Positions 921 through 50,606 of a stretch of 64,000 nt of DNA are shown here, in pieces. Under the pieces are notes generated by a model that was given only the letters and a program-made list of their open reading frames with translations, did no database searches and had not been told where the DNA came from. A program made the position numbers and the translations under genes. Position 1 is the stretch's first letter. The number at the start of each line of letters is the position of its first letter. Origin of the DNA: an uncultured Candidatus Saccharibacteria bacterium (GTDB lineage: Bacteria > Patescibacteriota > Minisyncoccia > UBA6257 > UBA9933); NCBI GenBank assembly GCA_964428615.1, contig CAYRXZ010000001.1, positions 2,334-66,333 on the forward strand, written 5' to 3'.

Positions 921-2462
921 ATGTCAAAACAACCGATTATATTGGCAATTTTAGATGGCTGGGGAGAGGGCCAGCCAAATAAAACAAATCCTATTTATAC
1001 TGCCGAACCAAAAAACTTTGATTATTTAAGAGCTAATTTCCCAAGCGGATTACTTCAGTCATCCGGCATCAGCGTCGGCTTGCCCTGGGGAGAAGAAGGA
1101 AATAGTGAAGTAGGACATTTAAATTTGGGCGCCGGAAGAATTATCTACCAATATTTGCCGAAAATTGATTTTGCTATTCGCGATGAAAGTTTTTTTAAAA
1201 ATCCTGCCATCAGAAACGCCTTTGAGCATACAAAAAAATATAATTCCAGCGTTAATCTGATAGGTTTAATAGGCAACGGCAATGTCCATTCTTCTTTTAA
1301 CCATATAAAATCACTTATCGAATTCGCGGTAAAAGAAAATGTTCCAAAAATAAATCTTCATCTTTTTACCGATGGCCGCGACAGCGCGCCGATTTCTTCA
1401 ATAGAAACATTAAATCGTCTGCCAAAAGAAGCTAACCTGGCAAGTATTAGCGGCCGTTTTTTTGGCATGGACAGAGAGGGTTATTGGGACCGTACCAAAA
1501 AAGCTTATTCTGTGATGATTGGAGAAGGTCCAGTAAACACCGATATTGAAACTTATATTAAAAATTCTTATGCGGGCAAAAAAACCGATGAATACATTGA
1601 ACCGACACGCGTAAAAGAAGGATGTGAAATTAAAGATAACGACGCGGTAATATTTTTTAATTTCCGCGAGGATAGAATCAGGCAAATGGCATCTGTTTTC
1701 GCCGATAGAAACTTCCAGAAATTCCCGGTTAAAAGTATCAACAATCTCTTTGTGGCAACAATGACACCTTACGATAAAAATATAAGCGCGGCAGTTATTT
1801 TCCCAAATGAAAAAATTGATTATTGTCTAAGTAAAATCTTGGCTGAAAACGGGAAAAATCAAATTAGAATAGCCGAAACTCAAAAATATCCTCATATAAC
1901 TTATTTTTTCAATGGCCTGGAAGAAAAGCCATTTTTAAATGAATATCGAACTTTAATCCCTTCAAGGCCGATTGTCAGACAAGACGAACACCCTGAAATG
2001 ATGACTCCAGAAATAGCCAATCGCGCCATAGAATCTATAATGGAAGATGCATTTGATTTTGTGCTTATAAATTTCGCCAATTCCGATATAATCGCCCACA
2101 CTGGAAATTATGATGCTTGTGTTAAAGCAGTAAAAGTAATTGATGAACAAATAGGAAAACTCATAAAAACCGTTTTAGAAACTGATGCTACTCTAATTAT
2201 TACGTCCGACCATGGCAATATAGAAAAAGTTATAGACGAAAGAACTGGGAATATCGAAACTAAACACAATGCCAATCCTGTGCCGATTTATATAGTTTCT
2301 AAAAAATTTATGCGTCCCAGAACTCAAGAAGAAATTCTTAGATCAAGAAAAGAAAACATCGGCATTTTAGCCGATGTCGCGCCCACTATTTTGGAATTAA
2401 TGGGTCTCCCCCAGCCAAAAGAAATGACAGGGCAGAGCCTAATTAAGTTTTTGGTGAGCTAG
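921..2462 (+). CDS. gpmI: 2,3-bisphosphoglycerate-independent phosphoglycerate mutase
   Basis: 513 aa; N-terminal ILDGWGEG and SEVGHLNLGAGR metal-binding motifs of iPGM. Confidence 0.9.
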   Translation: MSKQPIILAILDGWGEGQPNKTNPIYTAEPKNFDYLRANFPSGLLQSSGISVGLPWGEEGNSEVGHLNLGAGRIIYQYLPKIDFAIRDESFFKNPAIRNAFEHTKKYNSSVNLIGLIGNGNVHSSFNHIKSLIEFAVKENVPKINLHLFTDGRDSAPISSIETLNRLPKEANLASISGRFFGMDREGYWDRTKKAYSVMIGEGPVNTDIETYIKNSYAGKKTDEYIEPTRVKEGCEIKDNDAVIFFNFREDRIRQMASVFADRNFQKFPVKSINNLFVATMTPYDKNISAAVIFPNEKIDYCLSKILAENGKNQIRIAETQKYPHITYFFNGLEEKPFLNEYRTLIPSRPIVRQDEHPEMMTPEIANRAIESIMEDAFDFVLINFANSDIIAHTGNYDACVKAVKVIDEQIGKLIKTVLETDATLIITSDHGNIEKVIDERTGNIETKHNANPVPIYIVSKKFMRPRTQEEILRSRKENIGILADVAPTILELMGLPQPKEMTGQSLIKFLVS

Positions 2463-2497
2463 ATAATTGGATAATTAGTTTTTCAAAAACTAATTCT

Positions 2498-3748
2498 CTA
2501 ATTCTCCAGTTTTCCAATCTCTAATAATCTATTATATTTTATCATTCTTTCCGGCGCCGATGGGGCGCCGGCTTTTATCCCAAAAGCTCCGGTTCCCACC
2601 GCTAAGTCAGCTATAAAATCATCCATTGTCTCGCCGCTTCTGTGAGAAATGACTGCTTGCCAATTATTCTCATATGCCAGTTTAACTACATTTAAAGTTT
2701 CTGTTAAGGTACCGATTTGATTCGGCTTTATTAAAATCGTGTTGCCGGATTTTTTTTCTATCGCGGTTTTTAACCTTTCAAAATTAGTTGTTGTTAAATC
2801 GTCTGTTATCACCAATAATCCGTGTAAATCCGTGTTCGGGTCCGTGTAAATCCGTGTTGTGAGAGACGCGAACGAATCAAATGACTCTTCGGAAAAAGGA
2901 TCCTCTATCGAAAAAATTTTATATGCTTCAATAATTCTATAATAATAATTTCTCAATTCTTCTGCTGAATATTCTTTTTTGCCCAGAATATAAACTCCCC
3001 CTTGTTTGTCGTTTGTCGTTTGTAGTTTATAAAATTGCGTTGCTGCCGTATCCAAGCCGATTTTCAATGGATAATTATGCTTCAAAATCAAATCCGCCAT
3101 AATCTCAAGCGCTTGTTCATTATTCTCAAAGGGGCACGAAAATCCCGCTTCATCACCAAACATAATATTTTCTTTACTAAATTTTTCCTCAAGAGATTCT
3201 CCTAATTTTCTGTAAAATTCTTGCCCCAAACCTAATGCCAAATTAAAGTCTTGTGTGTCGGGAATTATCTGAAATTCCTGAAAATTCAATTTTGATTCCG
3301 GATGCGTGGCATGCGCCCCGCCATTTATAACATTAAAAAGGGGTCGCGTGCTTCTTGAAACCTGAAACTTAGAATCTGAAATTTTATTTATATATTCAAA
3401 CAATTCAACGCCTTCTTTTTTTGCTTTTGACCGCGCAAACGCCAAAGACAAAACCAAAGTCAAGTTTCCGCCAAGATTACTCTTATTCTGGGTGCCGTCT
3501 AAATAAATCAAAAAATCATCAAAATCTTTTTGATCTTTAAATTCTCTGCCTAAAATGCCGAGCTTTGTCTTATTAAATTTTTCAACAGCAAGTTGTGGTT
3601 CCAACACAAACGCTTCATGCGCCCCCCGGCTTTTTCCGCTTGGAGCCGAGGCTATTGCTGAAAATTCACCGGCTTTTAATTCCGCTTCCAATGTATCTTT
3701 CCCCCGCGAATCCTGAATTATTTTTAAATTAATATCAATAATTTTCAT
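2498..3748 (-). CDS. eno: Enolase (phosphopyruvate hydratase)
   Basis: 416 aa; C-terminal SHRSGETMDDFIADLAVG and KYNRLLEIG enolase signatures; contains short in-frame tandem repeat inserts. Confidence 0.9.
   Translation of the reverse strand: MKIIDINLKIIQDSRGKDTLEAELKAGEFSAIASAPSGKSRGAHEAFVLEPQLAVEKFNKTKLGILGREFKDQKDFDDFLIYLDGTQNKSNLGGNLTLVLSLAFARSKAKKEGVELFEYINKISDSKFQVSRSTRPLFNVINGGAHATHPESKLNFQEFQIIPDTQDFNLALGLGQEFYRKLGESLEEKFSKENIMFGDEAGFSCPFENNEQALEIMADLILKHNYPLKIGLDTAATQFYKLQTTNDKQGGVYILGKKEYSAEELRNYYYRIIEAYKIFSIEDPFSEESFDSFASLTTRIYTDPNTDLHGLLVITDDLTTTNFERLKTAIEKKSGNTILIKPNQIGTLTETLNVVKLAYENNWQAVISHRSGETMDDFIADLAVGTGAFGIKAGAPSAPERMIKYNRLLEIGKLEN
3003..3030. repeat. Heptamer tandem repeat (CGTTTGT)x3+1 inside eno
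   Basis: cgtttgt cgtttgt cgtttgt agtttat; encodes QTTNDKQ segment in-frame. Confidence 0.6.
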
Positions 3749-3942
3749 TTTATGAAAAATCCATTATAAACCCAAAATATATCAATTAATAATCCCAAAA
3801 CACCGATAACCAAAATTGTCATTAAAACCCATAAAGGAAATAACTTTTTAAACTTAAGCCCCCACAATGAAATACAAATTAAAAATGCAAAGATGAAAAT
3901 GCCAAAGATATCAAAAAATTCCGGTCGCATAAAGTTAAACAT
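3745..3942 (-). CDS. Small hydrophobic membrane protein (hypothetical)
   Basis: 65 aa, two predicted TM helices; 4-nt overlap with eno start. Confidence 0.3.
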   Translation of the reverse strand: MFNFMRPEFFDIFGIFIFAFLICISLWGLKFKKLFPLWVLMTILVIGVLGLLIDIFWVYNGFFIK

Positions 3943-3953
3943 ATTAATTAACT

Positions 3954-4583
3954 TTAATTCACTATAATCTTATTAATAATAAAAAAATCTTTTACAATTT
4001 CAAAAATTTTTCTGTGGCCCTCAGAATTCGGGTGCAGACCGTCTTCTGATAAATTTTCATTCCCTTTTAATTGATCGAAGACTTCTATAAATAAAAGATC
4101 ATTCTCCTCGCAAACTTTTTTTATAATTTCATCGTATTTTTGAATATATTCATTTTTGTAAAATTTATCTGTATCCCATGGAATCGGCGTAGTTTTTAAT
4201 TCTTTAATCGGCGTTAAACCGACAAAAATTATTTTCCCCGAAAACTGCTTAACACGACTTATTAAAAATAAAATGTTGTTTTTAAAATTTTCGAGCGGAA
4301 CCCGAAAACTATTTTTAGTAGGAATAAATTGAGAATCATTTATTCCTATCGCAAAAATAAAAATCGTTTTTTCTTTACTGTCAAATCTAATCCTTATTTC
4401 CTGTTCAAATCTTTTTAATAAAGCTTCCGTATTATCACCGTTGATCCCAAGATTATATACGGAAAAATCGCTTTCGTCAGACAAATTTTTATCATCTAAA
4501 AACTTTCTTAGCCTTTTCACCCAACCGCCCTCATTATCACAAGCACCATAAGTTATACTATCCCCAAAAATAAGAATTGTCAT
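3954..4583 (-). CDS. SGNH/GDSL-family hydrolase
   Basis: N-terminal ILIFGDSITYG (GDS(L) block I) and downstream conserved blocks of SGNH hydrolases. Confidence 0.6.
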   Translation of the reverse strand: MTILIFGDSITYGACDNEGGWVKRLRKFLDDKNLSDESDFSVYNLGINGDNTEALLKRFEQEIRIRFDSKEKTIFIFAIGINDSQFIPTKNSFRVPLENFKNNILFLISRVKQFSGKIIFVGLTPIKELKTTPIPWDTDKFYKNEYIQKYDEIIKKVCEENDLLFIEVFDQLKGNENLSEDGLHPNSEGHRKIFEIVKDFFIINKIIVN

Positions 4584-4584
4584 T

Positions 4585-7011
4585 TTATTGCTTCTTCAAT
4601 TTCTTCTCCTTTTCGTAAACTTTCAAAGTCGTTTTTATCACCGTGTCCGGGTTTAAAGACATACTCTCAATGCCTTGTTCAACCAAAAACTCGGCAAAAT
4701 CGGGATAATCAGACGGAGCTTGGCCACAAATACCAATATATTTCTTGCGTTTGCGGCATTTTTTGATTACTTCGACGATTAATTTCTTAACTGATTCATC
4801 TTTTTCATTTGCTACGTCGCGAACCAATTCCGAAGCGTCACGATCTATACCAACTGTTAATTGAGTTAAATCATTTGAACCGATACTCATGCCATCAAAA
4901 ATATTTAAAAATTCGTCCGCTAAAACAACATTTGAAGGAATTTCGCACATGACAAAAATATTAAGATTTTTGTCACCCCGAGCTTGCCGAAGGGTTTTCT
5001 TTATTATTTCAATAACTTTCTTGCCTTCTTCCACTGTCCGGCAAAACGGCACCATTACCGCCACATTATCCAATTTCATTTCTTCACGAACTTTTTTAAT
5101 TGCTTTAAGCTCTAATACAAAAGCCGAAGCAAAATTCGGGTGATAATAACGCGAAGCGCCACGCCAGCCAATCATTGGATTTTCTTCTTGTGGCTCATAA
5201 ATTTCTCCGCCAATTAAAGTACAGTATTCATTTGTTTTAAAATCCGAAAACCTTACAATAACTTGTTTTGGATAAAACGCCGCGGCGATTTTTGCAATTC
5301 CATAAGCAAGCTTATCAATATAAAATTGTTTTTTATCTATGTAGCCTATTGTTTTTTTATCTACAAGTTTTTTTACCGCCACAGGAAGTTTTTTATAATT
5401 TATTAAAGCATTTGGATGAATACCGATATCACTGGCGATAATAAATTCTTCTCTTGCCAGCCCGACACCATCATTCGGCAAAAGCGATTTTTCAAAAGCT
5501 GTATCCGAAGTAGCGATATTCATCATTATTTTGGTCTTCGGTTTAGGAAATTTTTTAACGTTATTTTCTATCACTTTAAAATTCAAAGCTCCATCGTAAA
5601 TTACGCCCTCGCTGGAAGTGGTGTCTACGGTTATAGTCTGACCCGTTTTTATCTTTTTTGTGGCATTGCCAGAGCCTACAACGCAAGGAATGCCCAATTC
5701 ACGCGAAACTATAGCTGCATGTGAAGTTCGTCCGCCTTTATCTGTAACAATCGCCGAAGCGATTTTCATAATTGGCTCCCAATCCGGGTCTGTCATATCA
5801 GTTATTAAAACTTCGCCCGCTTTAAACTGGCTTATTTGTTTAGCGTCTAAAATTATCCGCGCTTTGCCAACGGCAATTTTATTCCCTACTGATGCTCCTT
5901 TTACAATAACCCTTTTAATTTGTCTCTTATTGCTCGTCACTAATCGATATTCTTTTATTTTTGAAAAATCCCGGCGGCTATGAACTGTTTCTGGTCTGGC
6001 TTGAACAATAAAAAGTTCTCCTGTTTTGCCGTCTTTCGCCCATTCCATATCCATTGGCGTCCATTTTTTCCGCAAAGTCGTGTAATGTTTTTCTATTATC
6101 ATTGCCCACTCCGCCAATTTCAAAATTTCCGCTTCACTTAAAATAAATTTATTTTTTTCTTCTATTCCTACGTCTATAACTTTTGTTTTTTTAATACCGC
6201 GACCGGTTGAATAAACCATTTTACGGCTCTTATCGCCAAGCCGTTTATCTATAATTGCCCTAGTCTTTTTGAAAACCAAGAACTCGTCCGGCGTTACTTC
6301 TCCCTGCACAACCATTTCGCCTAAACCCCAAGCGCCGTTTATTAAAACTACATCTGGAAAACCTGACTCCGTATCAAGTGTAAATATTATTCCCGAACAT
6401 CCCAAATCTGAGCGCACCATTTTTTGTACACCCACTGAAAGAGCCATTTTAGTGTAATCAAATCCCTTATCCGCCCTGTAAGAAATCGCCCTATCTGTGA
6501 ACAAAGAAGCAAAAGATTCTTTCACCGCTTGTAAAACTTCTTTTGTGCCGCGAATATTCAAAAATGTTTCGTATTGGCCGGCAAACGACGCATCGGGCGC
6601 GTCTTCTGTTGTCCCGCTGGTACGAACTGCCACATCTGCATTTTTACCATATTCTTTTTCTAATTTTTTATAATTTAAAGCTATTTCTTCTTCAAGTTCT
6701 CTTGGCACATCAACGCTTTTAATCATTTCCCTGATTAATTTTCCACGCCTAGCTAAATCCGGAAGGTTATGGGTATTTAAACCTTTAAGTGTTTCCGCTA
6801 TGAAAACTTCTATTGTTTTGTTTTTGTTTTTAAGTTTTGTATTTTTTAAAAAATACCTATATGCTTCCGCCGTTACCGCGAAACCATCGGGTATATTTAA
6901 ACCTTTCGGTTTTAAATATTGGATCATTTCCCCAAGCGAACCGTTTTTCCCACCCACTTCTAAAACATTTTTAATTCCTACTTCTTTAAATTGTTTTATA
7001 AATTTTTTCAT
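4585..7011 (-). CDS. ppsA: Phosphoenolpyruvate synthase (pyruvate, water dikinase)
   Basis: 808 aa; N-terminal VGGKNGSLGEM like E. coli PpsA, PEP-utilizing mobile domain GGRTSHAAIVSRELGIPCVVG, C-terminal TIM-barrel PEP-binding domain. Confidence 0.85.
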   Translation of the reverse strand: MKKFIKQFKEVGIKNVLEVGGKNGSLGEMIQYLKPKGLNIPDGFAVTAEAYRYFLKNTKLKNKNKTIEVFIAETLKGLNTHNLPDLARRGKLIREMIKSVDVPRELEEEIALNYKKLEKEYGKNADVAVRTSGTTEDAPDASFAGQYETFLNIRGTKEVLQAVKESFASLFTDRAISYRADKGFDYTKMALSVGVQKMVRSDLGCSGIIFTLDTESGFPDVVLINGAWGLGEMVVQGEVTPDEFLVFKKTRAIIDKRLGDKSRKMVYSTGRGIKKTKVIDVGIEEKNKFILSEAEILKLAEWAMIIEKHYTTLRKKWTPMDMEWAKDGKTGELFIVQARPETVHSRRDFSKIKEYRLVTSNKRQIKRVIVKGASVGNKIAVGKARIILDAKQISQFKAGEVLITDMTDPDWEPIMKIASAIVTDKGGRTSHAAIVSRELGIPCVVGSGNATKKIKTGQTITVDTTSSEGVIYDGALNFKVIENNVKKFPKPKTKIMMNIATSDTAFEKSLLPNDGVGLAREEFIIASDIGIHPNALINYKKLPVAVKKLVDKKTIGYIDKKQFYIDKLAYGIAKIAAAFYPKQVIVRFSDFKTNEYCTLIGGEIYEPQEENPMIGWRGASRYYHPNFASAFVLELKAIKKVREEMKLDNVAVMVPFCRTVEEGKKVIEIIKKTLRQARGDKNLNIFVMCEIPSNVVLADEFLNIFDGMSIGSNDLTQLTVGIDRDASELVRDVANEKDESVKKLIVEVIKKCRKRKKYIGICGQAPSDYPDFAEFLVEQGIESMSLNPDTVIKTTLKVYEKEKKLKKQ

Positions 7012-8381
7012 ATTTTTAATATTAACATTAAATCTGATACATTAAAAGTTTTCTTTTCTGTAAAAATTAAATCTCCGGTTTTTTTAAAAAAATCAAAAAC
7101 ATTATGATTTTTAAGATATTTTTCAAAGTTTAATTTCAACTTCTGAGCCTTACTTATTGTCAAAATATCGCCAATTGCGCCCGCAGCCTCGGTATTATCT
7201 TTGCCGTCACTGGCAACGCTCAAAAGAACGTAATTCTGAATTCTAAATTCTGAATTCTGAATTAGCATTTCTAAAACTCCAAGCACCGCCTCCATATTCC
7301 TTCCTCCCTTGCCCGGATTTTTCCCTAAAACAATCGTCGTTTCTCCCCCAGCCACAGCAATGTTTACTTTCCTATAGGAAAGTAAACCAACCAGTGGTAT
7401 TAAGGAATTTTTGGCTTCTCCGTTTAATTTATATGAATAAATTTTCGGCAAAAACCCCAATTTTTTCGCCTTTTTCACCATTGCCATGATGGGCTCGCGG
7501 TTGGAAACAAACAAAATATTTTTGACACTTTTAAAATATTTTTTATCCCCGGTAGTAGAACTTCGTTCGCTACGGGGCTTCGCTTTCGGCGTTTCTATCA
7601 ACAAATTACGCGTAACAGGCGACAATAATCCATATTTTTTCAAAATTTTTTCCGCGTCTTTTTTTGTTGTTTTATCAGGCATTGTCGGACCGGAGGCCAC
7701 CATAGATAAATCTCCGCCTATAACGTCGGAAACTATTAAAGAAATCATTGTTGCCGGATAAGCAATTTTCGCCAGCCCGCCGCCCTTAACTTCGGATAAG
7801 TGCTTTCTTATTGTATTAAGCTCAATTATATTAGCTCCAGCGCTAGTTAATTTACTAAAAATCTCACGTGAAGCTTTTAATTCTTTTTTTGAACCGCAAA
7901 GCAATGCCGAACCGCCCCCGCAAATAAAGGAAATTATTAAATCATCTTTACCGGCTTTTCCCGCCAATTCAATTATTTTTTTTGTGGCTCTCACATTTTG
8001 AAGTGACGGTAGCGGATGCGTACCCGTTAAGAATTCAGAATTTAGAATTAAGAATTTAGAATTTAGGGACGGCTTATTAATATCTAAAGCAATACATTTA
8101 TTCAATTTTTTGCCTAAAATATCTGCCAGTGCCATACTCGCCAAAGCCGAACCCTTACCAATTCCAATGATAAAAACTTTTTTATAATTACCCAAACCTA
8201 TTTCTAATTTTCTGCTTCCCTTCAAGGAAGCAGATTTTATTGTAAGTTTACTGCCGTTCAGCTCTATTTTTCCACCTATTACCTTTTGAATATTTATTGC
8301 ACTATATCCCGCTTCAATAATTTGAAGCGCTTTTTTACGAAGCGGACTTTTCGCTAAATTTTTAAAATTAGTAATTATCAT
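7008..8381 (-). CDS. Glycerate 2-kinase, MOFRL family (DUF4147 + MOFRL domains)
   Basis: 457 aa; motifs GGGSALL, NTIRKHLSEVKGG, SDVIGGDLSMVASGPT, AGGETTIVLGKNPGKGGRNME match Thermotoga-type glycerate kinase; two in-frame heptamer repeat inserts. Confidence 0.7.
   Translation of the reverse strand: MIITNFKNLAKSPLRKKALQIIEAGYSAINIQKVIGGKIELNGSKLTIKSASLKGSRKLEIGLGNYKKVFIIGIGKGSALASMALADILGKKLNKCIALDINKPSLNSKFLILNSEFLTGTHPLPSLQNVRATKKIIELAGKAGKDDLIISFICGGGSALLCGSKKELKASREIFSKLTSAGANIIELNTIRKHLSEVKGGGLAKIAYPATMISLIVSDVIGGDLSMVASGPTMPDKTTKKDAEKILKKYGLLSPVTRNLLIETPKAKPRSERSSTTGDKKYFKSVKNILFVSNREPIMAMVKKAKKLGFLPKIYSYKLNGEAKNSLIPLVGLLSYRKVNIAVAGGETTIVLGKNPGKGGRNMEAVLGVLEMLIQNSEFRIQNYVLLSVASDGKDNTEAAGAIGDILTISKAQKLKLNFEKYLKNHNVFDFFKKTGDLIFTEKKTFNVSDLMLILKI
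7232..7265. repeat. Heptamer tandem repeat (AATTCTR)x5 inside glycerate kinase gene
   Basis: aattctg aattcta aattctg aattctg aattag; encodes IQNSEFRIQN in-frame. Confidence 0.65.
8031..8066. repeat. Heptamer tandem repeat (GAATTYA)x5 inside glycerate kinase gene
   Basis: gaattca gaattta gaattaa gaattta gaattta; encodes LNSKFLILNSEF. Confidence 0.65.
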
Positions 8382-8384
8382 AAA

Positions 8385-11300
8385 TCAAATCTTTTTAATC
8401 CCCGCCCAAATTGAGGAACCATTTATTTTAGTTTCGGCTTCCGCGTCAAATTTATCGGTCCGGTTAAAATAAACATTCTTTGCGGAAATTTTTTCTTTAA
8501 ATTCTTTAATATTCTTTTCTATTGCTGAACGGATTTCTACCGGGACTTCCAGCCATAAATCAATCTTATCTTTCGGCAAAAAACCAGCTTCCTTTCTTAT
8601 ATCCTGCATTGCTCTTGCCATTTCTCTTAATAATCCCTCTGCTTTTAATTCCGGAGTAATTTTTGTGTCCAATTCTATTTCTCCGCCGATTTTCAAATCA
8701 AAAATAATTTTTTTAACATTTATCTCATCTGCCAAAATTCCCAATAATTCTTTTTTATCCTTTAATTCTGAATTCTTAATTCTTAATTCTGAAAGCGGTT
8801 GCCTTACTTTAATTCCTCTATTGCCCCTTAATTCCAAAGCCGCTGAGGCAATTTTTCTAATTTCCACCATTGCCTCAATTAAATCTTTATCTATTAATTT
8901 TTTATCAACCTTCGGCCAATCTTCTAAGTGCACGCTTGCCGCTTGTCGCTTGCCGCTTGTCGCCAAAAAAATTCCCTCTGCCACAAACGGCGCGAATGGC
9001 GCAATAATTTTAGAAAACTCCGACAAAACATATTTTGTTGTTTCTATCGCAGCAAATTTATCACTGTCTTCCAATTTAAACCTTTCACGCGAACGTCGAA
9101 TATACCAAGTTGAAAAATCATCAACGAAACCGCTAAGCGGCCTGACCGCTTTGTCAATTTCATAATTCTCTAACGATTCCGAAACTTCCTGCTTTAATTG
9201 TTCCAACCGGGCAATAATCCATCTATCTAGAACATTTTTATTTGAAGCTTGAAGCTTGAAGCTTGAAGTTTTACTATCGGCGTACATCTCGTAAAATTTA
9301 TAAGTATTCCATAACCGCAATATTGTTTTTTTATAAACTTCATCCACGCCTTTTTCTGAAAAATTCAAATTTTCTCCCGCTACCACGGGAGAAGAAAGCA
9401 AATAAAGCCTCAAACTATCTGCGCCATATTTTGAAACAAGCTCCATTGGGTCAGGATAATTTTTCAATCGTTTGCTCATTTTTTGCCCATTTTCCGCCAA
9501 AATTATGCCATTAACAATAACGTTTTTGTAAGCCGGTTTATCAAACAAAGCTGTTGAGAGAACAAGTAATGTATAGAACCAACCACGGGTTTGGTCCATC
9601 CCCTCAGCGATAAATTCCGCCGGCACCGGAGAAAAATTATTCTTCGGCGTTGAAAACGGAAAATGCGATTGGCCGTAAGGCATTGAACCAGATTCAAACC
9701 AGCAATCAAAAACATCTTCTATTCTTTTCATTTTACTACCGCAACCGCAGATAAATTCCACTTTATCAATATACGGCCTGTGCAAATCAAGCTCAAAATT
9801 TTTATTATGCGGAAATGGAACAAATTTCAAATTTTTTATTTCTCCGGTTTTTATAAAATCTTTTTTATTTTCTCTTATCTTAATCGCCTTTTTGGCGCTT
9901 GCTCCTTCGGCGCCAGCGAAAAGCAGCCAAATCGGATATTCATGACTGATAATTAAAATATTTTTACCGGAATATTTTTTATCAATATCATAAATAAAAT
10001 CTGACATCCTATTTTTTAAATCAGTCAGGTTTTCACCTTTCGGAGCCGGCTTAACGAATTTTTCCTCGTAGGAAGAAAAATGTTCTCCATACTCTTTTAT
10101 TGACTTATTATTTAAATTACCTGTATTGACTTCTCTTAATCTTTTGTCGTAGAAAACCTTTTTAATCCCGAAATGCTTTGCCGCCATTCCCGCAGTTTCT
10201 TTTGTCCGAATAAAATCTGAACTATAAATCAAATCAATATTTTTTATCTTTTTTAGAGTATCAACAATTTCTTTTTTCCCTTTTTCTGTTAGATGGTGAC
10301 TGTTTTTATAATTTGAACTCGCAATACCAAATATATTATTTTCCGCTTGCCCATGCCTCATCACAAAATATTTATTACCCGAAGTTCCCGAATTTTTCTT
10401 TATTTCCTCAACCGAACCGACAACTTTTAATTTTCCGCATTTTTTACATTCCCAGACCGGGAGCGGCGACCCCCAAAAACGGCTTCTTGAAATCGCCCAG
10501 TCTCTCGCGTCTTTAAGCCACTGGCCAAAACGTCCATCTTTCACGTGTGCCGGCAGCCAGCTTATTTTCTGGTTATTTTTTATAAGCTTATCTTTAATCG
10601 CTGTCACCTTCACAAACCAAGAAGATGCCGCGTAATTCAAAAGCGGAGTTTCACAACGCCAGCAATGAGGATATGAGTGGACCACTTTTTCACAATTAAA
10701 AACTAAATTTTTTTCTGAAAGAAATTTTATTATTTTCTCATCGGTTTCTTTTGTATTCTCTCGCGGCTTTGCGCGCAAATTTGTAAAATTTTTAACTTCC
10801 TGTTTTAATTTTCCATTCATTCCGACATGCTGAATAAAAGGCAAATTAAGTTTTTGCCCTAATTCCATATCTTCCGCACCAAAAGCCGGAGCAATATGTA
10901 CAATACCCGTTCCTTCTTCAATATTCACAAAATCCGCCGGATAAATTTTCCATCCGTTTTCACGATCTTTTAATTTTTTATCCTGGCTGAAATAATCAAA
11001 AAGAGGCTTATAATTTTCCCCAACCAATTTATCTCCCTTAAACTTCTCTATAATTTCATACTTTTCTTTTACGGCGCCCAATCTTTCTTCCGCTAAAATA
11101 TATTTTTTGTTATCGAAAGTTTTTATTTTTATATAAGTAATTTTCGGGTTTACCGCCAAAGCCACATTCCCGGGCAAAGTCCAAGATGTCGTTGTCCAAG
11201 CCAAAACAAAAGTTTTCGGCTCGTCAATTAATTCAAATTTCAATGTTATCGCAAAATCTTCAATATTTTTATAGTTCTGGGTAACTTCAAAATTTGAGAG

Positions 11301-11867
11301 TGTTGTTTCACAGCGCGGGCAGATATGCATCGGCTTATAGCCTTTATAAATTAAATTCTTATCATATAAATCTTTAAAAACATGTAAAACTGATTCCATA
11401 TATTCAACATCCATAGTTTTATATGGATTTTTCATATCGACCCAACGACCGATTCTGGGAATCGTTTTTTTCCATTCTGATTCATATTTTAAAACACTGA
11501 TTCTCGCAGCCTCATTGAATTTTTCAACACCAAAATCAATAATGTCTTTTTTGCTTTTCAAGCCCAGTTCTTTTTCGATTTCAAATTCAACCGGTAAACC
11601 ATGGCAATCCCAACCCCATCGCCTTTTAACGCTCTTCCCCTTCATAGTCTGGTAACGAGGAATTGCGTCTTTTATTATTGAAGCTAAAATATGGCCATAA
11701 TGCGGCAAACCATTAGCAAAAGGAGGACCATCGAAAAATCTGTATTCTGCTGACGGTTTACCCTGAGCCTGTCGAAGGGATTTTTCAAAAATATTATTAG
11801 TTTGCCAAAAATTAAGAACTTTTTCTTCAATTTCCGCAGGATTGAAATTTTTAAGATTTTTAAACAT
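8385..11867 (-). CDS. ileS: Isoleucyl-tRNA synthetase with an inserted histidine-phosphatase domain
   Basis: 1160 aa; HIGH-type motif PHYGH, KMSKR motif, zinc-binding CPRC/CWRC, DLHRPYID block; ~210 aa extra domain between WECKKCG and DLHRPYID. Confidence 0.9.
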   Translation of the reverse strand: MFKNLKNFNPAEIEEKVLNFWQTNNIFEKSLRQAQGKPSAEYRFFDGPPFANGLPHYGHILASIIKDAIPRYQTMKGKSVKRRWGWDCHGLPVEFEIEKELGLKSKKDIIDFGVEKFNEAARISVLKYESEWKKTIPRIGRWVDMKNPYKTMDVEYMESVLHVFKDLYDKNLIYKGYKPMHICPRCETTLSNFEVTQNYKNIEDFAITLKFELIDEPKTFVLAWTTTSWTLPGNVALAVNPKITYIKIKTFDNKKYILAEERLGAVKEKYEIIEKFKGDKLVGENYKPLFDYFSQDKKLKDRENGWKIYPADFVNIEEGTGIVHIAPAFGAEDMELGQKLNLPFIQHVGMNGKLKQEVKNFTNLRAKPRENTKETDEKIIKFLSEKNLVFNCEKVVHSYPHCWRCETPLLNYAASSWFVKVTAIKDKLIKNNQKISWLPAHVKDGRFGQWLKDARDWAISRSRFWGSPLPVWECKKCGKLKVVGSVEEIKKNSGTSGNKYFVMRHGQAENNIFGIASSNYKNSHHLTEKGKKEIVDTLKKIKNIDLIYSSDFIRTKETAGMAAKHFGIKKVFYDKRLREVNTGNLNNKSIKEYGEHFSSYEEKFVKPAPKGENLTDLKNRMSDFIYDIDKKYSGKNILIISHEYPIWLLFAGAEGASAKKAIKIRENKKDFIKTGEIKNLKFVPFPHNKNFELDLHRPYIDKVEFICGCGSKMKRIEDVFDCWFESGSMPYGQSHFPFSTPKNNFSPVPAEFIAEGMDQTRGWFYTLLVLSTALFDKPAYKNVIVNGIILAENGQKMSKRLKNYPDPMELVSKYGADSLRLYLLSSPVVAGENLNFSEKGVDEVYKKTILRLWNTYKFYEMYADSKTSSFKLQASNKNVLDRWIIARLEQLKQEVSESLENYEIDKAVRPLSGFVDDFSTWYIRRSRERFKLEDSDKFAAIETTKYVLSEFSKIIAPFAPFVAEGIFLATSGKRQAASVHLEDWPKVDKKLIDKDLIEAMVEIRKIASAALELRGNRGIKVRQPLSELRIKNSELKDKKELLGILADEINVKKIIFDLKIGGEIELDTKITPELKAEGLLREMARAMQDIRKEAGFLPKDKIDLWLEVPVEIRSAIEKNIKEFKEKISAKNVYFNRTDKFDAEAETKINGSSIWAGIKKI
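8763..8793. repeat. Heptamer tandem repeat (WAATTCT)x4 inside ileS
   Basis: taattct gaattct taattct taattct; encodes SELRIKNSEL. Confidence 0.65.
8934..8964. repeat. Heptamer tandem repeat (GCTTGYC)x4 inside ileS
   Basis: gcttgcc gcttgtc gcttgcc gcttgtc gcc; encodes ATSGKRQAAS. Confidence 0.65.
9244..9271. repeat. Heptamer tandem repeat (GAAGCTT)x4 inside ileS
   Basis: gaagctt gaagctt gaagctt gaagttt. Confidence 0.65.
9753..10376 (-). other. Histidine phosphatase (phosphoglycerate-mutase-like, RHG motif) domain inserted within ileS coding sequence
   Basis: Residues ~498-705 of IleRS: VMRHGQAENN (catalytic RHG), IRTKETAGMAA, ILIISHEYPIWLL (second catalytic His) - complete branch-1 histidine phosphatase fold signatures. 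Confidence 0.6.
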
Positions 11868-42302: not shown

Positions 42303-43670
42303 ATGATTAAATTCTACAATACTCTTTCCGGTAAAAAGGAAGCTTTTAAACCACTTAAAAATAAAACAGCTCGAATCTACAATTGCGGACCGACGGTCTA
42401 CAACTATGCCCATATAGGCAATTTGAGAACTTATGTTTTTGAAGATATTTTGCGCCGTACACTTAAAGCGAATGGCTATAAAATAAAACAAATAACTAAT
42501 ATCACCGACGTTGAAGATAAGATTATTAAAAAAGCCCAACAAGAAAAAAAGGACATTTCTCAGATTACCCGCCCTTTCGAAAAAATATTTTTTGGAGACC
42601 TTAAAAAGCTAAACATTGAAAAATCCGAGCGTTATCCCCGCGCCACTGAACATATAAAAGAAATGATACTTATTATTTCCGCTTTGATGAAAAAAGGTTT
42701 TGCATACCAAGGAAAAGACAAATCAATTTATTTTAAAATTTCAAAATTTAAAAATTATGGCAAGCTTTCAAGATTAAAAAAACGCCAAATAAAAATTGGT
42801 GCCAGAATCGACAGCGACGAATATAAAAAAGATGATGCCCAAGATTTTGTTTTATGGAAATCGGCAAAGCCGAACGAACCGTCATGGCCTTCACCTTGGG
42901 GCACAGGCAGACCGGGCTGGCACATAGAATGTTCAGCTATGAGTATGAAATACCTCGGCGCACCACTTGATATTCACGCCGGCGGAGTAGATTTAATTTT
43001 TCCACACCACGAAAATGAAATCGCCCAATCGGAAGCTGCTACTGGAAAAAAATTCAGCAGGTTTTGGATCCACGGCGAACATCTTTTGGTTAACGGCGAA
43101 AAAATGTCAAAATCGCTCGGCAACATTTTTACGCTTCGCGATTTAGAAAAAAAGGGTGTTAATCTTTTAGCTTTCCGTTATCTGCTTCTTGGAACGCATT
43201 ACAGAAAAAAACTAAATTTTACATGGCAATCACTCAACGCCGCAGAGCACGCACTAAATAATCTTCACGAGTTTCTTGAGACAACTAAACAAATTAAAAC
43301 GCCTAGACACCTAAACACTAAAAAACTCAAACTTTATAAAGACCAATTTATCAGCGCTATTAATGACGATTTAAACACATCAAAAGCGCTTTCAATTGTC
43401 TGGCAAATTATTAAAGATAAAAACCTGCCAGCGAAAGATACAAAACGATTAATTTTCGATTTTGATAAGGTTTTAGGGCTTGAATTAAAAGATATAAAGC
43501 CCCTAAAAACCCAAAAAATACCTGACAAAATAACAGTGTTGGCGAAAAGGCGAGAGTTATTAAGAGTTAATAAACAATTTATTCAAGCCGACGCCTTGCG
43601 GAAACAAATAGAAAAGTTAGGATACCTTATAGAAGACACAACCAAAGGACCAGTCCTTTGGAAATCATAA
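42303..43670 (+). CDS. cysS: Cysteinyl-tRNA synthetase
   Basis: 455 aa; HIGN (HIGH) and KMSKS motifs, CGPT..Y.H zinc-binding start. Confidence 0.9.
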   Translation: MIKFYNTLSGKKEAFKPLKNKTARIYNCGPTVYNYAHIGNLRTYVFEDILRRTLKANGYKIKQITNITDVEDKIIKKAQQEKKDISQITRPFEKIFFGDLKKLNIEKSERYPRATEHIKEMILIISALMKKGFAYQGKDKSIYFKISKFKNYGKLSRLKKRQIKIGARIDSDEYKKDDAQDFVLWKSAKPNEPSWPSPWGTGRPGWHIECSAMSMKYLGAPLDIHAGGVDLIFPHHENEIAQSEAATGKKFSRFWIHGEHLLVNGEKMSKSLGNIFTLRDLEKKGVNLLAFRYLLLGTHYRKKLNFTWQSLNAAEHALNNLHEFLETTKQIKTPRHLNTKKLKLYKDQFISAINDDLNTSKALSIVWQIIKDKNLPAKDTKRLIFDFDKVLGLELKDIKPLKTQKIPDKITVLAKRRELLRVNKQFIQADALRKQIEKLGYLIEDTTKGPVLWKS

Positions 43671-50559: not shown

Positions 50560-50606
50560 ACAGGCCGTCCTGTTTTTATAAACAGTTGCGGCCTTTTTTA
50601 TTTTTA
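50560..50606. terminator. Bidirectional rho-independent terminator (GGCCG..CTGTTTttatAAACAG..CGGCC + T6ATTTTT)
   Basis: Nested hairpin between convergent 50059..50544 (+) and giant gene (-, stop 50604). Confidence 0.5.

What the first reader, a model, noticed from the sequence alone, without database searches (positions are those of the whole stretch)
9753..10376. Complete histidine-phosphatase (PGM-like, RHG) domain inserted into the catalytic core of isoleucyl-tRNA synthetase
The ileS ORF is 1160 aa. Between the WECKKCG zinc-knuckle region and the conserved DLHRPYID block, ordinary IleRS has only a short linker. Here there is a ~210-aa module carrying all hallmark motifs of branch-1 histidine phosphatases (cofactor-dependent phosphoglycerate mutase / SixA / PhoE-like): VMRHGQAENN (catalytic Arg-His-Gly), IRTKETA, and ISHEYPIWLL (second His). 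The reading frame is continuous and the flanking IleRS blocks (HIGH-type PHYGH, KMSKR) are intact, so this is a domain insertion or fusion and not an intein or frameshifted pseudogene. The neighbouring genes are lower-glycolysis enzymes including a phosphoglycerate mutase. A phosphatase embedded in an aaRS could act on a nucleotide or aminoacyl-adenylate-related substrate, or provide an editing or moonlighting function. I am not aware of this architecture being described.
Basis: partly seen in the sequence, partly recalled or inferred. Interest (0 to 1): 0.72.

Follow-up and report, generated by a model that had tools for sequence, protein, structure and literature searches.

The report
Phosphatase domain inserted inside isoleucyl-tRNA synthetase
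An essential translation enzyme (isoleucyl-tRNA synthetase) of a whole group of ultra-small Patescibacteria carries a complete, apparently active phosphatase inside its catalytic core; relatives encode the same phosphatase as a separate gene just upstream, and no paper found describes this.

Summary
ORF 8385-11867 (-) is a 1160-aa type-2 IleRS. A 198-aa segment (aa 496-693) replaces a 3-residue linker of canonical IleRS. It is a branch-1 histidine phosphatase (PF00300, E 3e-27; AF2 pLDDT 94; nearest folds PspA, PhoE, CobC), lying in the CP3 subdomain between the two Cys pairs of the zinc knuckle.

It is not an artefact. The ORF occurs on independent assemblies. All 80 retrieved species-level Patescibacteria genomes have the insert at the same site, and 62 give complete ORFs. 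R504, H505, G506, R554, E579 and H642 are invariant. dN/dS is 0.07-0.12, like the IleRS body.

New findings:
- Relatives lacking the insert carry a free-standing homologue upstream of ileS (7/7 look-ups). Insert-bearing loci have none, so the two forms appeared mutually exclusive.
- The insert's history is decoupled from its host gene. Mosaics have sharp edges at the junctions in both directions, which indicates cassette exchange by recombination.
- Related phosphatase domains sit at other sites in IleRS and in ValRS.

The substrate is unknown. The glycolysis neighbourhood is local, not conserved. Eight literature searches found no description. I rate it a new variant of a known kind, interest 0.7.

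The parts
8385..11867 (-). ileS: type-2 (eukaryote-like) isoleucyl-tRNA synthetase, 1160 aa plus stop, carrying the inserted phosphatase
   Evidence: AF2 full-length model mean pLDDT 89.6, pTM 0.83
10383..11867 (-). IleRS N-terminal part, aa 1-495: first Rossmann half with HIGH-type PHYGH (aa 55-59), CP core, CP1 editing domain (WTTT motif aa 224-227), CP2, first half of CP3 with C474/C477
   Evidence: Aligns to human IleRS 9-494. Editing-domain hit 1wk8. Invariant residues. Domain limits taken from PMC7955072 and PMC7191050.
9789..10382 (-). Inserted segment, aa 496-693: branch-1 histidine phosphatase domain (about aa 498-681) plus return linker
   Evidence: PF00300 E 2.9e-27. AF2 of the insert alone pLDDT 93.7. 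Foldseek top hits PspA 4ij5/4ij6, HFP 9mmh, TIGAR, PhoE 1h2e, CobC 6nru. Absent from canonical IleRS and from insert-less relatives. GC 0.310, lower than any 594-nt segment of the rest of ileS.
10350..10358 (-). R504-H505-G506: catalytic RHG, with H505 the predicted phospho-acceptor
   Evidence: Translation check. Invariant in 63/63 full-length homologues. R and H are also invariant in the 78-sequence alignment that includes free-standing forms; G is at least 90%.
10206..10208 (-). R554: second phosphate-binding Arg (IRTKETA motif)
10131..10133 (-). E579: predicted proton donor (LREVNTG)
   Evidence: Invariant in inserted forms; 77% in free-standing forms.
9942..9944 (-). H642: second catalytic His (ISHEYP)
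9786..9824 (-). Return linker FVPFPHNKNFELD (aa 682-694), consensus FxPxPHNxxxELD. It is specific to the inserted form and is the C-side boundary of the recombination mosaics.
   Evidence: F682 .94, P684 .89, P686 .92, H687 .94, N688 .94, E692 .94. Absent from free-standing proteins, which end at GE(l/v)r.L. Mosaic edges.
8388..9788 (-). IleRS C-terminal part, aa 694-1160: DLHRPYID, C707/C709 of the CP3 zinc knuckle, second Rossmann half (DCWFESG, GMDQTRGWFY, KMSKR 796-800), anticodon-binding domain, DUF5915

Best explanation
The gene encodes a working type-2 IleRS whose CP3 subdomain hosts a complete, catalytically competent PhoE/PspA-like histidine phosphatase, so the protein has three active sites: synthetic, editing and phosphatase.

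Shown: the domain is inserted at the tip of the CP3 zinc knuckle and replaces a 3-residue linker. It folds as an autonomous alpha/beta domain. It keeps every catalytic residue and is under purifying selection as strong as the synthetase. The architecture is a lineage-wide trait of Parcubacteria-type Patescibacteria. In relatives without the insert, a free-standing homologue of the same subfamily sits just upstream of ileS in the same argS-ileS-recO block, while insert-bearing loci have no such gene. The phosphatase is thus kept with ileS either in trans or in cis. The insert is a recombining cassette: its phylogeny is decoupled from the IleRS body, with sharp mosaic edges at the conserved junctions (NKYFVMRHG and FxPxPHNxxxELDLHRPYID).

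Inferred from the family mechanism: H505 attacks a phosphomonoester to form phospho-His, E579 protonates the leaving group, and R504, R554 and H642 hold the phosphate.

Inferred from linkage: the phosphatase is a dedicated partner of IleRS rather than an unrelated passenger. The capped pocket and the structural neighbours point to a small phosphomonoester. My best guess is a nucleotide-type monoester met at the synthetase (AMP, NMP, or a 2'/3'-phosphorylated adenosine end), but the substrate is not established.

Confidence by layer: architecture real and ancient 0.97; phosphatase active 0.85; functionally coupled to IleRS 0.55; specific substrate class 0.2.
For: Domain identity.

Insertion site; CP3 limits from PMC7955072 and PMC7191050.

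Recurrence:
- All 80 kept GTDB species loci match flank+insert+flank (query residues 1-308, or from residue 4 or 7); 455 candidates were tblastn-confirmed.
- 62 loci give complete ORFs of 1100-1392 aa, including the complete genome CP011215.1.
- 32 of the best 150 representatives at 50% identity are 1000 aa or longer; all six scanned by Pfam (P0125, P0166, P0175, P0219, P0229, P0232) are class Ia synthetases carrying the domain.

Conservation:
- R504, H505, G506, S550, R554, E579, E612 and H642 are invariant in 63 sequences; insert length is 211-225 aa in 60 of 63.
- dN/dS is 0.07-0.12 for the insert and 0.06-0.12 for the body.
- IleRS motifs and editing residues are intact.

Model: pLDDT 89.6, pTM 0.83; insert blocks 86-96, with one dip to 75 at aa 661-670.

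Cis/trans alternation:
- The free-standing homologue lies upstream of an insert-less ileS in 7/7 look-ups: 4 directly adjacent with gaps of 4-24 nt, 3 with 1-3 small or mobile genes between.
- 44 of 61 insert-bearing loci have argS upstream; in 17 of these 150 nt or fewer separate argS and ileS.
- 42 of 64 have recO downstream.
- No second phosphatase hit was found in the window or in any retrieved locus.

Cassette behaviour: (details in the full report).

Recurrence in another editing class Ia enzyme: ValRS with His_Phos_1 in at least 6 clusters plus one NCBI MAG.
Against: - No biochemical or structural evidence links the phosphatase active site to the synthetic or editing site or to the tRNA path. 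The tools give no coordinates, so distance and orientation are unknown.
- From the topology, the RHG loop lies at the end of strand beta-1 opposite the junction, which suggests the pocket faces away from CP3 (inference).
- All structural neighbours are small-molecule metabolic phosphatases.
- Other lineages carry the domain at different sites and in tandem arrays (P0166, P0232), which argues against a need for precise geometry.
- Adjacency in very small genomes may reflect operon inheritance only; the free-standing gene is as close to argS as to ileS.
- An apparent charge difference between free and inserted forms turned out to be a lineage-wide proteome bias, so it gives no support.
- Mutual exclusivity was checked only within about 4-10 kb loci, not whole genomes.
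Confidence: 0.55

Rival explanations
1. Passenger enzyme. The domain is an ordinary housekeeping small-molecule phosphatase (PhoE, PspA or CobC-like) with no role in translation. It started as an operon neighbour of ileS and was captured into a permissive surface loop, gaining constitutive co-expression. Once the free copy was lost, the fusion was locked in.
For: All structural and sequence neighbours are metabolic phosphatases with a capped pocket. The domain tolerates different insertion sites and tandem copies in other synthetases. CP3 is structurally variable among IleRS and has no tRNA contacts described in the text passages retrieved. The free-standing gene also abuts argS.
Against: One phosphatase subfamily stays linked to ileS in two different genetic forms across deep divergence, even where the IleRS in that slot is a divergent type (L088, L094) and where argS is absent (L092). 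It recurs in ValRS. The linker is strongly conserved and pTM is high. Passengers in essential catalytic cores are expected to be rare.
Confidence: 0.28
2. Conflict module. The phosphatase protects IleRS or tRNA-Ile from a phosphorylating attack, for example HipA-type kinases that inactivate synthetases, or toxins that phosphorylate or pyrophosphorylate the tRNA CCA end. An arms race then drives cassette turnover.
For: Cassette exchange decoupled from the host gene, with both 'insert far more diverged' and 'insert far more similar' mosaics. Multi-copy diverged arrays in ValRS and IleRS of other lineages. Branch-1 members include protein phosphatases such as SixA, PGAM5 and Sts-1 (established knowledge, from memory).
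Against: No kinase or toxin gene was seen next to the loci. dN/dS in close pairs is low. No phage carriage was found.
Confidence: 0.13
3. It is the organism's cofactor-dependent phosphoglycerate mutase, fused to ileS next to a glycolysis cluster.
For: The best NCBIfam hit for the insert is dPGM_arch (81.7 bits). The window neighbours are enolase, iPGM, PPDK-like and glycerate-kinase-like genes.
Against: The score is far below the cut-off (81.7 against 225). At about 185 aa the domain is the short phosphatase type, and its best folds are phosphatases. The window already encodes an iPGM. The glycolysis context is present in only 5 of 64 related loci; the usual context is argS-ileS-recO.
Confidence: 0.03
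4. Artefact or non-functional element: chimeric assembly, frameshifted pseudogene, or an intein that is spliced out.
For: Many database hits are fragments of 250-690 aa that start at MRHG or split the gene.
Against: The two fragments traced to their contigs are a frameshift-ridden assembly in which neighbouring genes are also split, and a contig-edge call. There are 62 complete ORFs in independent species genomes, one of them a closed genome. The window protein is identical on separate assemblies. dN/dS is about 0.1. No HINT or intein domain was found, and the junction residues are wrong for protein splicing. No flanking direct repeats.
Confidence: 0.01

Closest known systems
Type-2 (eukaryote/archaea-like) IleRS, e.g. 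T. thermophilus 1ILE, yeast 7D5C, C. albicans 6LDK, human 9W01
   Same: All domains and motifs are collinear: Rossmann fold, CP core, CP1 editing, CP2, CP3, anticodon-binding domain and C-terminal DUF5915 (E 1e-215 to 1e-228). The CP3 zinc knuckle matches T. thermophilus.
   Different: 198 aa are inserted where those enzymes have about 3 residues. No solved IleRS has a catalytic domain in CP3.
Small branch-1 histidine phosphatases: PspA phosphoserine phosphatase (4IJ5), PhoE/YhfR (1H2E, 1EBB), CobC alpha-ribazole phosphatase (6NRU), HFP riboflavin-pathway phosphatase (9MMH), GpgP Rv2419c
   Same: Same fold (TM 0.64-0.75), same size and full catalytic set.
   Different: Only 19-24% identity, and below every NCBIfam equivalog cut-off, so no substrate can be transferred. 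Those are free-standing proteins; this one is embedded in a synthetase.
Free-standing Patescibacteria phosphatase encoded upstream of ileS (P0050, P0111, P0056, P0093, P0110, P0096, P0053)
   Same: Closest relatives of the insert (38-49% identity). They share the N-terminal NKYF(I/V)(L/M)RHG motif and catalytic residues and sit in the same argS-ileS-recO block.
   Different: They are a separate gene, lack the FxPxPHNxxxELD linker, carry a WPEK motif the inserts lack, and cluster apart from the inserts.
NCBIfam NF040702 'ileS_w_GNAT' (IleRS containing an N-acetyltransferase domain)
   Same: A precedent for an unrelated catalytic domain inside IleRS. One metagenomic IleRS (P0229) has both His_Phos_1 at the CP3 site and a GNAT domain further on.
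   Different: The window protein has no GNAT domain and scores 323 bits against a cut-off of 1999.
Inteins (mobile insertions at conserved sites of essential genes)
   Same: Inserted at one conserved site of an essential gene, with phylogeny decoupled from the host gene, presence/absence polymorphism and sharp boundaries.
   Different: No HINT fold or homing endonuclease, and the junction residues are wrong for splicing. The insert is a conserved enzyme evidently retained in the mature protein.
Bifunctional RNase H / CobC-like acid phosphatase (NF005567; M. tuberculosis Rv2228c, M. smegmatis RnhC)
   Same: A branch-1 histidine phosphatase fused to a nucleic-acid enzyme with no clear functional link (the description is from memory). 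The NCBIfam hit is 61 bits.
   Different: That is a terminal fusion, not an internal insertion; a different partner enzyme; below the cut-off of 326.

Membership tests
Isoleucyl-tRNA synthetase (class Ia; TIGR00392) | Whole-protein profile score above the curated cut-off | tested here: met
   890.9 bits against 621.4; E 1e-215 to 1e-228 to solved IleRS
Isoleucyl-tRNA synthetase (class Ia; TIGR00392) | HIGH and KMSKS signature motifs intact | tested here: met
   PHYGH at aa 55-59 and KMSKR at 796-800; H59, K796, S798 at least 90% and K799 invariant in the family alignment
Isoleucyl-tRNA synthetase (class Ia; TIGR00392) | CP1 editing domain with its Thr-rich motif | tested here: met
   aa 198-401 match T. 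thermophilus editing domain 1wk8 (E 3e-27); W224, T225-T227, W229, T230, G319, G321, H324 and D333 invariant
Isoleucyl-tRNA synthetase (class Ia; TIGR00392) | Charges tRNA-Ile with isoleucine | not testable with these tools
   Needs an enzyme assay
Histidine phosphatase superfamily, branch 1 (PF00300) | Profile score above the Pfam gathering threshold | tested here: met
   96 bits against 21.7, E 2.9e-27
Histidine phosphatase superfamily, branch 1 (PF00300) | Catalytic set: RHG His nucleophile, second Arg, acidic proton donor, second His | tested here: met
   R504, H505, G506, R554, E579 and H642 present and invariant in 63 homologues
Histidine phosphatase superfamily, branch 1 (PF00300) | Alpha/beta phosphoglycerate-mutase-like fold | tested here: met
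   AF2 pLDDT 93.7; Foldseek probability 1.00, TM 0.64-0.75 to 4ij5, 1h2e, 6nru and 9mmh
Histidine phosphatase superfamily, branch 1 (PF00300) | Phosphomonoesterase activity through a phospho-His intermediate | not testable with these tools
   Needs an assay of wild type against H505A
Cofactor-dependent phosphoglycerate mutase (NF038349 dPGM_arch and bacterial dPGM equivalogs) | Equivalog score above cut-off | tested here: not met
   81.7 against 225; bacterial dPGM models 19-29 bits against 316-366
PspA phosphoserine phosphatase / CobC alpha-ribazole phosphatase / SixA | Equivalog score above cut-off | tested here: not met
   PspA 56.8 against 350; TIGR03162 63.2 against 162.9; SixA 29.5 against 74.5
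Intein | HINT domain; Cys/Ser at the N-terminal junction; His-Asn followed by Cys/Ser/Thr at the C-terminal junction | tested here: not met
   No intein or HINT Pfam hit. The family has a PHN motif, but the next residue is K/E/D and it lies 5 residues before the IleRS sequence resumes.
ileS_w_GNAT (NF040702) | Exception-model score above cut-off, and a GNAT domain | tested here: not met
   323 bits against 1999; no acetyltransferase Pfam hit

The most novel reading that the evidence does not exclude
The insert is a horizontally exchangeable catalytic cassette that gives class Ia editing synthetases (IleRS, and ValRS in other lineages) a third, translation-linked activity. Candidates are removing a phosphate from the tRNA 3' end, from a nucleotide by-product, or from the synthetase itself, for instance as protection against phosphorylating toxins. 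Conflict would then drive the observed cassette turnover. This would be a new kind of accessory activity for an aminoacyl-tRNA synthetase, and a new kind of mobile protein-domain element that spreads by recombination at conserved host motifs without splicing or a homing nuclease.
Probability: 0.17. Interest if true: 0.9.

Novelty: new variant of a known kind. Interest (0 to 1): 0.7.

Why it matters
Aminoacyl-tRNA synthetases are among the most conserved enzymes, and catalytic domains inserted into their cores are very rare. Here a whole bacterial radiation keeps an apparently active phosphatase with IleRS, either inside it or encoded next to it. That points to an unrecognised requirement or partnership in Patescibacteria translation.

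The cis/trans pair offers a natural experiment: the same two activities fused or separate. The recombining-cassette behaviour shows an enzyme domain moving between alleles of an essential gene, in the way inteins do but without splicing. This bears on how multidomain proteins arise.

Practically, such IleRS genes are commonly split or misnamed by annotation pipelines ('histidine phosphatase family protein, partial', 'class I tRNA ligase family protein'). ileS is also used as a phylogenetic marker, and mosaicism in it could mislead trees.

Tried and rejected
1. Charge argument. Free-standing phosphatases are very basic (median pI 9.95) and inserts acidic (5.9), which I first read as a lost RNA- or partner-binding surface. 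Rejected: IleRS, ArgRS and RecO of the split-state genomes are equally basic, so it is a lineage-wide proteome bias.
2. Genuinely split IleRS genes as evolutionary intermediates. The two fragments traced to their contigs are a frameshifted assembly with neighbouring genes also broken (P0007/L096) and a contig-edge call (P0156/L097).
3. UGA recoding to explain broken ORFs. The in-frame stop in P0166 is TAA. The L100 valS is not rescued by table 25.
4. Direction of evolution (free gene to insert, or the reverse) from an IleRS-body NJ tree. Neither state is monophyletic in 0 of 60 bootstraps and the body tree conflicts with the domain tree, so the direction is unresolved.
5. A dS-based test of horizontal transfer against in-situ acceleration. 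dS is saturated (1.2-1.8) even for the closest pairs.
6. Target-site duplications or terminal repeats around the insert: none.
7. Phage carriage: no close relatives in IMG/VR, only 26%-identity hits.
8. AFDB fold search of the full model: the library was unavailable.
9. Geometry of the phosphatase pocket relative to the synthetic and editing sites: no model coordinates are exposed, so this could not be measured.
10. Eight literature searches on IleRS or tRNA synthetase combined with histidine phosphatase, PGM, Parcubacteria, CPR, Patescibacteria or Pfam names found nothing on this architecture. One search served only for domain nomenclature.
Full report
**1. What is in the sequence**

The minus-strand ORF 8385-11867 encodes 1160 aa in one frame. 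Pfam finds:
- tRNA-synt_1 split into two stretches;
- His_Phos_1 at aa 501-663 (E 8.6e-26; the excised 208-aa segment gives 96 bits against a gathering score of 21.7);
- Anticodon_1 and DUF5915.

NCBIfam's ileS equivalog scores 890.9 bits against a cut-off of 621.4.

Against solved structures, residues 7-495 align to human cytoplasmic IleRS 9-494, and residue 694 aligns to residue 498. About 198 residues (aa 496-693, nt 9789-10382) therefore stand where canonical type-2 IleRS has three.

Using the domain limits published for yeast and Candida IleRS (CP3 = 459-526 and 473-534; PMC7955072, PMC7191050), the site is the middle of the CP3 subdomain. It lies between the two cysteine pairs (C474/C477 and C707/C709) of the zinc knuckle that T. 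thermophilus IleRS also has. These four Cys are kept in 50 of 63 family members.

**2. It is real and ancient**

- The identical protein occurs on separate assemblies from ENA, Logan, JGI and NCBI.
- A scan of one genome per GTDB species confirmed 455 candidates. The 80 loci kept all match flank+insert+flank, covering query residues 1-308 or starting at residue 4 or 7.
- 62 of these loci give complete ORFs of 1100-1392 aa. They include the closed genome CP011215.1 and RAAC4_OD1_1.
- The hosts are Parcubacteria-type Patescibacteria (Nomura-, Campbell-, Vogel-, Wolfe-, Yonath- and Tagabacteria, 'Paceibacterota').
- In the 63-sequence alignment R504, H505, G506, S550, R554, E579, E612 and H642 are invariant. 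The insert length is 211-225 aa in 60 of 63.
- Against the closest relatives, dN/dS is 0.07-0.12 for the insert and 0.06-0.12 for the IleRS body.
- HIGH, KMSKS and the editing-site residues are intact.
- AlphaFold2 gives mean pLDDT 89.6 and pTM 0.83 for the whole protein. Insert blocks score 86-96, with one dip to 75 at aa 661-670. The insert alone gives 93.7.
- Foldseek places the insert among short, capped small-molecule phosphatases: PspA, HFP, TIGAR, PhoE, GpgP and CobC, with TM 0.6-0.75. It falls below every NCBIfam equivalog cut-off, dPGM included.

Many database hits are fragments. The two traced to their contigs are a frameshifted assembly and a contig-edge gene call.

**3. Same partnership, two genetic forms**

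The closest free-standing relatives of the insert are proteins of about 180-198 aa at 38-49% identity. In all seven look-ups the gene lies upstream of an insert-less IleRS of 927-980 aa. Six of the seven sit in the block argS - phosphatase - ileS - recO; L092 has no argS upstream.
- In four cases it is directly adjacent, with gaps of 4-24 nt.
- In three cases 1-3 small or mobile genes lie between.

Those IleRS have only a short linker at the site, for example GNVEELGRKMK-DLHRP.

Insert-bearing loci mostly keep the same block without that gene:
- argS is upstream in 44 of 61 loci;
- in 17 of these, 150 nt or fewer separate argS and ileS;
- recO is downstream in 42 of 64.

No second phosphatase hit exists in the window or in any retrieved locus. 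Free proteins end at GE(l/v)r.L. The inserted form adds a conserved return linker, FxPxPHNxxxELD.

The window's own context (DUF362 - ileS - MOFRL - PPDK, beside enolase and iPGM) is shared by only a few close relatives; MOFRL is downstream in 5 of 64 loci. The glycolysis neighbourhood is therefore not a functional clue.

**4. An unexpected property: the insert is a recombining cassette**

Pairwise identities among the 63 full-length proteins:

| Comparison | Correlation (r) |
|---|---|
| IleRS N-half vs C-half | 0.88 |
| Insert vs N-half | 0.18 |
| Insert vs C-half | 0.21 |

IleRS bodies fall into two clades (identity 0.605 within, 0.458 between). Insert identity is the same within (0.442) and between (0.428).

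Mosaics run in both directions:

| Pair | Body identity | Insert identity |
|---|---|---|
| L038 / L046 | 84% | 42-45% |
| L070 / L075 | 51% | 77% |
| L075 / L082 | 48% | 73% |
| L045 / L061 | 48% | 65% |
| L022 / L024 | 51% | 64% |

In L038/L046 identity falls right after NKYFVMRHG and recovers at FVxIPHNExYELDLHRPYID.

Flanking genes, used as species proxies, track the body but not the insert:
- ArgRS: r = 0.44 with the body, 0.01 with the insert.
- RecO: r = 0.60 with the body, 0.18 with the insert.

In some pairs it is the body that disagrees with the flanks.

Insert-less IleRS are interleaved among insert-bearing ones in a body tree; neither group is monophyletic in any of 60 bootstraps. 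The phosphatases themselves cluster by state.

The cases where the insert is more similar than the body exclude a pure rate effect. The simplest reading is recombination at the conserved junctions, which shuffles cassettes, and perhaps presence or absence, among ileS alleles.

Limits on this reading:
- The direction and number of events are unresolved.
- dS is saturated, so transfer cannot be dated.
- The window's insert is also more AT-rich (GC 0.310) than any equal-length stretch of the rest of ileS.
- No flanking repeats and no phage copies were found.

**5. Related variants elsewhere**

- P0166 is an IleRS with His_Phos_1 domains at three other sites, and has an in-frame TAA in the third.
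- P0232 is a ValRS with at least four mutually diverged His_Phos_1 domains, at the start of CP2 and in CP3.
- P0229 is an IleRS with a RAYT-like domain in CP1, His_Phos_1 at the CP3 site, and a GNAT domain.
- ValRS with His_Phos_1 recurs in at least six clusters and in one NCBI MAG.

**6. How it most likely works**

Shown: an intact IleRS plus an intact phosphatase active site, kept together by selection in cis or in trans.

Inferred from the family mechanism: H505 forms a phospho-histidine, E579 is the proton donor, and R504, R554 and H642 bind the phosphate.

Inferred from the linkage: the phosphatase serves IleRS, at about 0.55 confidence. The capped fold suggests a small phosphomonoester. 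A nucleotide-type substrate is my best guess, but it is weakly supported.

Rival readings, with my confidence in each:
- an unrelated passenger enzyme (0.28);
- a conflict module acting on phosphorylated IleRS or tRNA (0.13);
- a dPGM (0.03);
- an artefact or intein (0.01).

The geometry of the pocket relative to the synthetic and editing sites could not be measured, because model coordinates are not exposed.

**7. Novelty**

Eight full-text searches found no description of this architecture. The sequences are public under automatic names. NCBIfam has an exception model for a GNAT-containing IleRS but none for this one.

I rate it a new variant of a known kind. The cis/trans alternation and the cassette behaviour are the most surprising parts.

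Noticed in passing
P0232 (metagenomic protein, 1161 aa, contig 3.9 kb); L100:3369-7188 (GCA_942491595.1): A ValRS (valS models 380-410 bits) carries at least four His_Phos_1 domains, all with RHG intact and only 31-35% identical between the three complete copies. One is at the start of CP2 and three are in tandem at the CP3 site. ValRS with His_Phos_1 recurs in at least 6 protein clusters and in an NCBI MAG where the gene is broken by frameshifts.
   Followed up: partly
P0166 = L098:1711-4974 and L099:1570-4833: An IleRS has His_Phos_1 domains at three sites different from the window's: after the second CP3 Cys pair, in the HYPFxN-FPADFI loop, and in the anticodon-binding region. An in-frame TAA interrupts the third domain, and the frame continues as phosphatase sequence after it. 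The same sequence is in two assemblies. Pseudogene, split gene or readthrough was not resolved.
   Followed up: partly
P0229 (1066 aa, JGI contig 11.3 kb): An IleRS with a REP-associated tyrosine transposase (Y1_Tnp/RAYT) domain in-frame inside CP1 (aa 326-472), His_Phos_1 at the CP3 site, and a GNAT acetyltransferase domain after the HFPFEN loop. NCBIfam has a separate model for GNAT-containing IleRS (NF040702).
   Followed up: no
L088:6581-9481, L094:6509-9388: In two split-state loci the IleRS in the argS-phosphatase-ileS slot is a divergent type, about 40% identical to all others, with different CP2-CP3 linker and WFxSG motifs. Their upstream phosphatases are ordinary family members. The phosphatase-ileS linkage has survived an apparent IleRS replacement.
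   Followed up: partly
L083-L094 (split-state loci): Genomes with the free-standing phosphatase have strongly basic proteins throughout (IleRS pI 8.1-9.6, ArgRS 9.0-9.8, RecO 8.6-9.6). IleRS bodies of insert-bearing genomes have a median pI of 6.2. This is a lineage-wide proteome charge difference.
   Followed up: partly
L086:6668-9055; L084:4664-5668: Diversity-generating-retroelement-like genes (RVT_1 reverse transcriptase, bAvd) sit between the free-standing phosphatase and ileS in L086. Another RVT_1 gene lies upstream of argS in L084/L085.
   Followed up: no
L036 (MFVF01000018.1) and L041 (PEZV01000039.1) ileS: Further lineage-specific insertions inside the same region: a low-complexity stretch of about 23 aa within the first Cys pair and about 20 aa before the second pair in L036, and a roughly 37-aa Arg/Ser/Gly-rich stretch inside the phosphatase domain of L041.
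   Followed up: no
window 9789-10382 versus the rest of 8385-11867: The insert is more AT-rich (GC 0.310, GC3 0.273) than the rest of ileS (GC 0.365, GC3 0.330). No 594-nt segment of the remainder is as low.
   Followed up: yes
window 921-8381: Lower-glycolysis and gluconeogenesis cluster: iPGM (+), enolase, a GDSL hydrolase, a PPDK/PEP-synthase-like gene and a DUF4147/MOFRL glycerate-kinase-like gene. The last overlaps the PPDK-like gene by 4 nt and ends 3 nt before the ileS stop.
   Followed up: partly
window 50604-55487 (-): A 1627-aa ORF with three Lamin-tail domains and a PKD domain, probably a surface protein. Other synthetase genes in the window (CysRS 42303-43670, PheRS beta 45179-47191) have ordinary architectures with no phosphatase.
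   Followed up: no
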